A model generated the notes under the pieces. It saw nothing but the letters and a program-made list of their open reading frames with translations. It did no database searches and was not told where the DNA came from. DNA of 13,303 bases, the filler included, from Oculina patagonica (taxonomy: Eukaryota): the NCBI RefSeq assembly GCF_052425735.1. It is 2 parts of 2 records of this genome, joined end to end, with 100 filler letters (N's around TTAATTAATTAA, not from the genome) between each part and the next. Parts side by side here need not be neighbours in the genome. Positions count along the whole stretch, not along the records: positions 1 to 4,794 come from NC_135762.1; 1 more part is not named here. One strand, given 5' to 3'. This document shows, one piece after another, positions 23 through 1,049 of this stretch (its first letter is position 1; each line of letters opens with the position of its first letter). Both the position numbers and the translations under genes were made by a program.

Positions 23-1023
23 CAAAAACAGAAGTGACATACGTTCTCAGAACCAAGTACACGAATCCTAGTGATTGGAAATTCCAATGGCGTGGAGAAA
101 TGATCATAGTCACGGTCGAATCAAGCAGTGGAGTGCTCGTCCCAAACGAACAGCACAGTCGAAAAAAAATGCCGAAGACGAACGGCCGACAAGAGAGACC
201 ACCAAGCCCCACGAAAGCGCCACACTCAACGAACAAGAGCCCAGATCCCATCAACCACCAGGAAAGAGAAAGAGAAATGCAGAGCCCGAGCACAAAAAAA
301 GAAGCGAAACAGAGGAGACAGGACGGAGGACGCGAAAGCGACGAGACTGGCCAGGACCGACGACCGAGACCGTCCAGCGACCCCGCAGCCCAAGCGCCCA
401 GACAGCGGAGAGGACGGGACCCGCCGGAGGGGAGGGGACCGGGCGGAGGAGGGACCGCGACAGCGAGCCGGCCGACGCCAGGCGAACGGGAGCGGCGCGA
501 GGGGGCGGGGAGATGTATAATGGATTAAGTGTAATGACGAGAGAGGAGAGGTGTCAGTATTTTATAAGTGTTGGAACAGAAGTGATCAAGGAGGAATGAG
601 GTAGAAAAGAAAAGAATGAGGAGAAGAGAGAGAATGTAAGAGAAAGTTGAAGAAAATTTAGGGCTTAGCTCTGATCAGCGAAAGGAAGAAAAGAGAAAGA
701 GGAAAATTAGGGAAGAGAGAAAGAAATGAGGGGGGAAAGGCTGAAGAAAAGAGAAAGCACAGACGAAAGATCCCTCGAAAAAGTAATAGGGGGGTTGTTA
801 AGTGAAAAAAAGAATTTTTTAAGAGGGGGGTTAGGAGGTGATATATTTTGTGTGGTGGAAGTTAGTGAATTGAAGGGAAGCTTAGAAATGGGATGTTATT
901 TTTTTTAGTTTTATGGTGAGAGCATTAATAGGGTAGGGAAAAAGTATTTTTTTTTATTTGATAGAATTTTAAGTAATTGTAGTATTGTATTGTAATGAGT
1001 GTGATGAATCAGTAAGAGCAATA

Positions 1024-1049
<26 letters not shown>
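23..1049 (+). mobile_element. Polyadenylated retroposed insertion (5'-truncated non-LTR element or retrocopy) with 13-bp TSD
   Basis: TSD agaactaagactg at 10-22 and 1050-1062. AATAAA at 1020-1025 runs into an uninterrupted A tract (1023-1050). Composition differs sharply from the flanks. Confidence 0.9.

What the first reader, a model, noticed from the sequence alone, without database searches (positions are those of the whole stretch)
23..1049. The inserted 1-kb poly(A) RNA has no RT/EN remnant and is of unknown identity
Seen: one + frame is open from the 5' junction to 528 (KTEVTYVLRTKYTNPSDWKFQWRGEMIIVTVESS... then a disordered R/P/G/E-rich tail), followed by ~500 nt of purine-rich putative 3' UTR and AATAAA fused to the tail. 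A truncated LINE normally shows the ORF2 C-terminus here, and I recognise none. Inference: an unusual L1/Tx1-like or non-autonomous element with an extra 3' ORF, a host retrocopy, or a viral mRNA captured in trans by LINE machinery (as with endogenous bornavirus-like elements).
Basis: partly seen in the sequence, partly recalled or inferred. Interest (0 to 1): 0.7.

Follow-up and report, generated by a model that had tools for sequence, protein, structure and literature searches.

The report
Young retroinsertion splitting coral TMEM175 gene
A 1-kb poly(A)-tailed piece of DNA, likely the cut-short tail of an ordinary jumping gene rather than a captured virus, sits backwards inside the first coding exon of a coral's lysosomal ion-channel gene (TMEM175) and would disable that copy.

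Summary
The insertion is real: 23-1049, perfect 13-bp target-site duplication, AATAAA fused to a 28-A run. Removing it restores the reading found in 54 of 55 stored homologues. The exception is this locus's own RefSeq model, which bridges it with a 7-nt micro-exon and a 41-nt intron.

The 'ORF' is best explained by composition: 8 T in 345 nt, all three frames open, no codon periodicity (p=0.89; 0 of 23 true ORF2 ends exceed 0.5). Lack of RT/EN is expected: Tx1-type 3' UTRs fetched here reach 1,462 nt, and one holds a 171-codon open frame.

No relative of the insert was found in 1.84 billion proteins, IMG/VR or JGI contigs. The host genome and reads were unavailable, so the parent is unidentified. 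Most likely a young 5'-truncated L1/Tx1-clade LINE tail (0.62); non-autonomous element 0.17, host retrocopy 0.10, LTR-element RNA 0.05, virus 0.03. The scan had not noted this sequence before; a similar verdict exists for another genome.

The parts
10..22 (+). Left copy of the 13-bp target-site duplication
   Evidence: Exact match to 1050-1062
23..1049 (+). Whole inserted sequence (1,000-nt body plus A tail), sense on +, antisense to TMEM175
   Evidence: Bounded by the duplication; its removal restores the homologous TMEM175 reading
23..165 (+). 5' segment of balanced composition; possibly the last ~45 codons of a Tx1-type ORF2, possibly UTR
   Evidence: Profile of 17 Tx1-type ORF2 tips places its QW motif in register but at only 0.8 bits, 4% of shuffles equal or better, test chosen after a by-eye match; two earlier profile tests and 19 pairwise tests not significant
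166..510 (+). T-less, CpG-rich segment that makes all three frames open; one G-quadruplex-type motif at 416-453
   Evidence: 8 T in 345 nt; motif arises in 27% of shuffles
512..800 (+). A/G-rich purine tract of the inferred 3' UTR
   Evidence: 78% A+G and 6% C over 529-800
781..1022 (+). C-less, G/T-rich 3' end
   Evidence: 4 C in 242 nt; minimum elsewhere in the window 9 per 240 nt
1020..1025 (+). AATAAA fused to the tail
   Evidence: Only + strand AATAAA/ATTAAA in 1-1060
1023..1050 (+). Uninterrupted poly(A) run, 28 nt (last A belongs to the right duplication)
1050..1062 (+). Right copy of the target-site duplication
1050..1144 (-). TMEM175 first coding exon, part before the insertion (ATG at 1144, first transmembrane helix)
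   Evidence: Pfam PF06736 E 8e-4, below the curated cut-off on 31 aa; human TMEM175 PDB 6w8n E 0.003; identical to P0002 over 30 residues
1..22 (-). TMEM175 exon, continuation after the insertion; the rest of the gene lies outside the window
   Evidence: Reads on in the homologous frame; P0002 continues for about 470 residues
911..913 (-). First in-frame stop met by TMEM175 read-through (77-residue product)
953..958 (-). AATAAA on the TMEM175 strand, about 100 nt into the insert; predicted premature polyadenylation signal
   Evidence: use is inferred
61..67 (-). 7-nt micro-exon that the RefSeq model needs to keep TMEM175 in frame (followed by a 41-nt intron, 60-20)
   Evidence: Only splice solution found that gives P0002's first 38 residues
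169..371 (+). First exon of a second gene model (P0001) that splices the insert into the RTE-type remnant at 2540; likely spurious

Best explanation
The 1-kb insert is likely the 3' end of a recently active L1/Tx1-clade LINE, copied into the first coding exon of TMEM175 and cut short before or just at the end of ORF2, so that it is almost all 3' UTR and its long open frame is likely a by-product of having almost no T. Shown: the boundaries, the duplication, the tail, the position and antisense orientation in TMEM175, the in-frame stop, and that none of the four direct GT-AG splices between the duplicated ends keeps the frame. Inferred, from established target-primed reverse transcription: an endonuclease nicked the - strand at 5'-TTCT/GC-3', the T-rich end primed on the RNA's A tail, copying stopped after about 1,030 nt, and a second nick 13 bp away made the duplication. 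Inferred: this TMEM175 allele is inactive, because its transcript runs into poly(U), an AATAAA and a stop after 77 codons; the event is young and probably polymorphic; and the public full-length model is an annotation patch. The clade and parent family are not shown.
For: Perfect 13-bp duplication, 28 pure A, fused AATAAA; PMC5381506 states that L1 ends with AATAAA followed by the A tail in all species it examined and gives 3' UTRs up to 2,157 nt in fish and 2,751 nt in mammals (passages). In 13 hand-picked Tx1-type elements from metagenome contigs the stop-to-tail distance was 179-1,462 nt, 2 of 13 over 1 kb; L080's 723-nt UTR holds a 171-codon open frame; L043 shows the same order of T-poor GC-rich then C-poor T-rich sequence. 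No coding signal in the insert. Youth: CpG o/e 1.05 against 0.60 in the decayed RTE-type remnant nearby; host ORF 72-85% identical to 11 aligned homologues over ~480 residues; 54 of 55 stored homologues (related, not independent) lack anything at this site. Weak hint of an ORF2 tip in 25-160 (P about 0.04).
Against: No sequence link to any LINE: blastn against 119 fetched loci gave only 18-34 nt low-complexity matches and tblastn only low-complexity hits to one GC-rich locus; the unselected ORF2 profile and 19 pairwise tip comparisons were not significant; 13 of 17 true tips passed the leave-out test at P<=0.017 whereas the insert reached only 0.04. The composition (T 1-2%, then C 2-3% per 150 nt) is more extreme than in any of the five reference UTRs profiled in bins (lowest T 13%, lowest C 6%). 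No second copy was seen in the window, in 1.84 billion representative proteins or in JGI contigs. Tail positions in the reference elements were not verified by their own duplications. Poly(A) plus a duplication is not unique to L1/Tx1 (PMC3747384 passages). P0002 also has an in-frame duplication and a divergent end near its C-terminus, so the gene copy may have been relaxed before or after the insertion.
Confidence: 0.62

Rival explanations
1. A non-autonomous A-tailed retroelement (long SINE-like, half-L1-like or composite) that borrows L1/Tx1 enzymes; the piece seen is its non-coding body.
For: Same insertion signature; no coding signal; blockwise composition unlike host DNA; CpG-rich middle.
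Against: No tRNA or other RNA-gene head, though truncation would remove one; autonomous elements with equally long UTRs exist, so nothing extra is needed.
Confidence: 0.17
2. A processed copy of the 3' end of a host mRNA or long non-coding RNA, mobilised in trans.
For: No second copy found anywhere searched; relaxed poly(A) recognition by L1 is known (PMC3747384 passages).
Against: AATAAA is fused to the tail instead of lying 10-30 nt before it (recalled norm for mRNAs); composition far outside the rest of the window; no parent protein for frame 1 although this species' annotated proteins are in the collection; seven exact ORF look-ups, two in frame 3, were absent. Frames 2 and 3 were not searched by similarity in the large protein collection.
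Confidence: 0.1
3. A LINE-made copy of an LTR-retrotransposon RNA (end of integrase, polypurine tract, U3-R), as known for HERV-W.
For: A G-rich purine run at 499-513 is followed by TGT exactly where composition switches; by eye the 25-160 peptide resembles the integrase C-terminal SH3-like module of L121.
Against: 6 purine runs followed by TG occur in the insert; Pfam SH3_Tf2-1 hits 2 of 3 equal-length control pieces (E 8e-4 and 0.07) but not the insert; pairwise P 0.36-0.68 against three integrases; fused AATAAA.
Confidence: 0.05
4. A captured viral mRNA, like endogenous bornavirus-like elements.
For: Duplication and tail fit; no host or LINE match was found.
Against: No hit for frame 1 or frame 3 in IMG/VR, for a 24-nt 3' probe, in PHROGs or among 1.84 billion representatives (frame 1); no codon signal; a 500-nt C-poor trailer. 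IMG/VR is poor in animal RNA viruses (recalled), so these negatives are weak.
Confidence: 0.03
5. An assembly artefact or chimeric join.
For: No second copy and no reads were available to check.
Against: An exact 13-bp duplication with an A tail at one end is not what mis-joins make, and the empty site restores the homologous frame.
Confidence: 0.03

Closest known systems
5'-truncated L1-clade LINE insertions (vertebrate L1; PMC5381506, passages read)
   Same: Target-site duplication, AATAAA directly followed by an A tail, long low-complexity 3' UTR, A-rich sense strand, G-rich purine tract as in mammals.
   Different: No sequence similarity shown; duplication 13 bp where the paper says typically under 10; T-less and C-less blocks more extreme; parent unseen.
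Tx1 clade (Tx1, Keno, Kibi, Koshi; PMC4494074, passages read) and the Tx1-type elements fetched here (L005-L119)
   Same: Present in cnidarians; A tails; UTRs up to 1.46 kb; L043 has the same compositional order; weak in-register match to the ORF2 tip.
   Different: Many Tx1 families prefer multicopy targets; this one sits in a protein-coding exon. The commonest fetched group is T-rich and A-poor on its sense strand, the opposite of the insert.
L1-made processed copies of HERV-W (PMC5016936, PMC5537654; search listing and abstract starts only)
   Same: LINE signature around a sequence that lacks LINE genes.
   Different: No significant integrase or LTR evidence here.
Endogenous bornavirus-like elements (recalled, no paper read)
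   Same: Duplication and A tail.
   Different: No viral protein match and no coding signal.

Membership tests
[quoted passage not shown] | Short target-site duplication flanking the insert | tested here: met
   13 bp exact; empty site restores the host frame
[quoted passage not shown] | 3' A tail or simple repeat next to the duplication | tested here: met
   28 A
L1/Tx1 clade LINE | AATAAA directly followed by poly(A) | tested here: met
   1020-1025; feature stated in PMC5381506
L1/Tx1 clade LINE | Parent encodes APE endonuclease and an RT that groups with L1/Tx1 | not testable with these tools
   No host genome held; insert holds no RT/EN
L1/Tx1 clade LINE | ORF2 C-terminal similarity at the 5' end of the insert | tested here: inconclusive
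   negative; P about 0.04, post hoc; 4 of 17 true tips also fail that test
L1/Tx1 clade LINE | Family of 3'-coterminal, variably 5'-truncated copies | not testable with these tools
   None in the window; genome unavailable
L1/Tx1 clade LINE | Nick at a pyrimidine/purine step like 5'-TTTT/AA-3' (consensus recalled) | tested here: inconclusive
   Site reads 5'-TTCT/GC-3'; partial fit, single site
Sequence-specific Tx1 families | Insertion into a multicopy RNA gene, microsatellite or transposon | tested here: not met
   Target is TMEM175 coding sequence; no Rfam or tRNA hit
Processed pseudogene | A spliced parent gene in the host | tested here: inconclusive
   No parent protein for frame 1; DNA search of the host not possible
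LTR-element processed copy | Integrase or env end, polypurine tract, U3-R | tested here: inconclusive
   Purine run plus TG present but 1 of 6 such sites; Pfam negative with 2 of 3 controls positive
Endogenous viral mRNA copy | Homology to a viral protein | tested here: not met
   (limited coverage of animal RNA viruses)

The most novel reading that the evidence does not exclude
The insert is the tail of an undescribed coral retroelement lineage whose RNA is built of a U-free block followed by a C-free purine block, active enough to knock out a conserved lysosomal K+/H+ channel in living colonies. Because its antisense 5' junction forms a strong splice acceptor and the duplication supplies donors, the host splices most of it out through a 7-nt exon taken from the element, so a new intron pair and a four-residue-longer TMEM175 are being born at this site.
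Probability: 0.07. Interest if true: 0.65.

Novelty: new member of a known kind. Interest (0 to 1): 0.3.

Why it matters
As a retroelement it is probably ordinary. Its value is local. It is direct evidence of recent retrotransposition into a conserved coding exon in a stony coral. It marks a likely natural loss-of-function allele of TMEM175, a lysosomal K+/H+ channel, in an animal group whose algal symbionts live in an acidic compartment enriched in lysosomal proteins (abstract starts only; none of the 10 papers listed there mentions TMEM175, so no link is in evidence). And it shows two public gene models to be probable artefacts: a full-length TMEM175 patched with a 7-nt exon, and a 'hypothetical protein' made of the insert plus an RTE remnant.

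Tried and rejected
No host genome was held. No sequencing run was listed, and no RNA holder was listed; this is no evidence either way. The ESM Atlas gave no answer. Pfam, PHROGs, PDB sequence search, Rfam and ARAGORN found nothing meaningful for the insert. A single-sequence fold of 25-195 was low confidence (pLDDT 63, pTM 0.34) and matched 0 of 48,161 chains at Z>=2, which is uninformative. Homologue searches: region 1-70 against longer proteins, 0 of 8 candidates; whole frame 1, 1 of 139, the locus's own model. Contig scans were empty: IMG/VR, JGI, prokaryote genomes. By-eye likenesses of the 25-160 peptide, all recalled motifs: the Tx1 ORF2 tip (borderline); the Gypsy integrase SH3-like module (rejected); CR1/L2 ORF1 C-terminal domain and restriction-like endonuclease end (no Pfam hit; not tested further). 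That four unrelated families all seemed to fit shows such likenesses are not diagnostic. A 5' inversion was considered and not supported: the purine bias is continuous along the + strand. No stable 3' stem-loop (z -0.68 and -0.29; best window 400-520 z -1.92). The G-quadruplex motif is at chance level. An intron-making (introner-like) design was rejected: all four direct splices between the duplicated ends shift the frame. Literature searches found no description of this element; PMC12440569 (part 1 of 5 read) and PMC5203782 (passages) did not bear on it. No supplements were opened.

Full report
Observation. The window holds an insert at 23-1049 between two exact 13-bp copies (10-22 and 1050-1062), ending in AATAAA fused to a 28-A run. 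Frame 1 is open to 528 as described. No RT or endonuclease is detectable in any long frame, while the same scan does see a weak RT piece in the decayed element at 2690-2950 (E 0.001).

The open frame is weak. The insert is built of blocks: balanced (23-165), almost T-free (8 T in 166-510), purine-rich (529-800, 78% A+G) and almost C-free (4 C in 781-1022). Without T there are no stops: all three + frames are open from about 110 to 517, and shuffles leave frame 1 open over 166-510 in 63% of cases. Shuffling the whole of 23-600 gives so long a frame in 3%, shuffling in 100-nt blocks in 17%. Base use does not vary with codon position (p=0.89), whereas 14 of 23 intact ORF2 ends of equal length give p<0.05 and none exceeds 0.5. 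Only the first 47 codons remain open to question.

On the - strand an ATG at 1144 begins a peptide that matches Pfam TMEM175 (E 8e-4) and human TMEM175 (E 0.003). A homologue search returned 15 TMEM175 proteins among 24 candidates. The best, P0002, is a RefSeq protein that its source names TMEM175-like of Oculina patagonica. It is identical to the window over 30 residues and 72-85% identical to 11 aligned homologues. Deleting the insert and one duplicate restores the frame. 54 of 55 stored proteins with this helix read straight through the site; the exception is P0002, which has four extra residues there. The only splice pattern found that yields P0002 uses a 7-nt exon (67-61) and a 41-nt intron; all four direct GT-AG splices between the duplicated ends shift the frame. 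Read-through meets a stop after 77 codons and an AATAAA at 958-953. I infer that the allele is inactive and the model a patch; RNA could not be checked. The sole protein hit of the insert, P0001, is likewise a model of this locus, spliced from 371 to 2540 into the RTE-type remnant.

Age. Exact duplication, pure tail, CpG o/e 1.05 against 0.60 in the nearby remnant and an otherwise conserved host ORF point to a young event (inference). P0002 does carry an in-frame duplication and a divergent end near its C-terminus, unexplained here.

Identity. The host genome and reads were unavailable, so the parent could not be sought directly. No relative turned up among 1.84 billion representative proteins, longer proteins, IMG/VR, JGI contigs or prokaryote genomes. 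For controls I fetched Tx1-type elements by an RT motif (115 loci, 80 with flanks; host organisms not determined). In 13 hand-picked ones the stop-to-tail distance was 179-1,462 nt, 2 of 13 over 1 kb. L080's UTR holds a 171-codon open frame. L043 runs from a disordered ORF2 end through T-poor GC-rich to C-poor T-rich sequence, the same order as the insert but milder. PMC5381506 (passages) gives L1 3' UTRs up to 2.2 kb in fish and 2.75 kb in mammals, always ending in AATAAA plus A tail. So a 1-kb truncated LINE without ORF2 is expected, not odd. Against this reading: there is no DNA similarity to any fetched element, and the protein link is borderline at best. An unselected profile of 19 ORF2 ends and 19 pairwise tests failed. 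An iterated profile of 17 tips put the QW motif in register at 0.8 bits, P about 0.04, after a by-eye lead, where 13 of 17 true tips reach P<=0.017 and 4 of 17 fail.

Mechanism. Shown: boundaries, orientation, disruption of the frame. Inferred from established target-primed reverse transcription: a nick at 5'-TTCT/GC-3' on the - strand, priming on the A tail, early stop after about 1 kb, second nick 13 bp away. Inferred: the template was the element's own RNA (0.62). Rivals: non-autonomous element (0.17), host retrocopy (0.10), LTR-element RNA (0.05; purine run plus TG is 1 of 6 such sites; Pfam SH3_Tf2-1 hits 2 of 3 controls but not the insert), virus (0.03), artefact (0.03).

Comparison and novelty. 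It works like a truncated L1-clade insertion. Membership of L1/Tx1 is supported by the end structure but the defining RT could not be tested; it is not a sequence-specific Tx1 insertion by target. Eight literature searches found no description of this element or of TMEM175 in corals among the papers listed; Repbase and Dfam could not be searched. Earlier scan notes hold nothing on this sequence. Verdict: a new, unidentified member of a known kind, with a worthwhile local consequence; interest 0.3.

Noticed in passing
L010, L031, L041, L047, L053 (tails), L013 (tail near locus 257): In 5 of 42 Tx1-type loci with enough downstream DNA the A tail joins directly to the 5' start of a U1 snRNA-like sequence, and L013 joins about 25 nt further in; Rfam confirms U1 in L010 and L013 but not L053, and L010 begins with a U2 gene. 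This suggests U1-targeting Tx1 families; one search (5 papers listed) and passages of PMC4494074 named only U2 targeting by Keno.
   Followed up: partly
window 2400-4140 (+): Decayed RTE-type LINE remnant (type by recalled motifs; RVT_1 E 0.001 at 2690-2950) with an internal repeat of its 3' part (3131-3263 and 4015-4148) and a long AACC tandem tail at 4148-4602.
   Followed up: partly
window 1927-2239: MITE-like element with 41-nt and 44-nt nested inverted arms, upstream of the TMEM175 start.
   Followed up: no
window 10362-10458: Short inverted-repeat element, 25-nt arms 47 nt apart.
   Followed up: no
window 8610-8833, 11181-11275, 11986, 12710: Dispersed and tandem copies of a 19-21-nt unit on both strands, including a 47-nt tandem pair.
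   Followed up: no
P0002, last ~60 residues (outside the window): In-frame duplication of about 25 residues and a C-terminus that differs from all 11 aligned homologues.
   Followed up: no
L001 1-3562: An IMG/VR phage-type contig whose first ORF fuses a glycosidase-like start to a near-complete mammalian-type L1 ORF2 (recognised from recalled motifs): probably a chimeric contig.
   Followed up: no
L121: Gypsy-type element in IMG/VR with integrase and an env-like region in one 2,290-codon frame, followed by a purine tract and TGT.
   Followed up: no
L063: The same tail and following sequence recur 1,014 nt apart, suggesting tandem insertions at one site.
   Followed up: no
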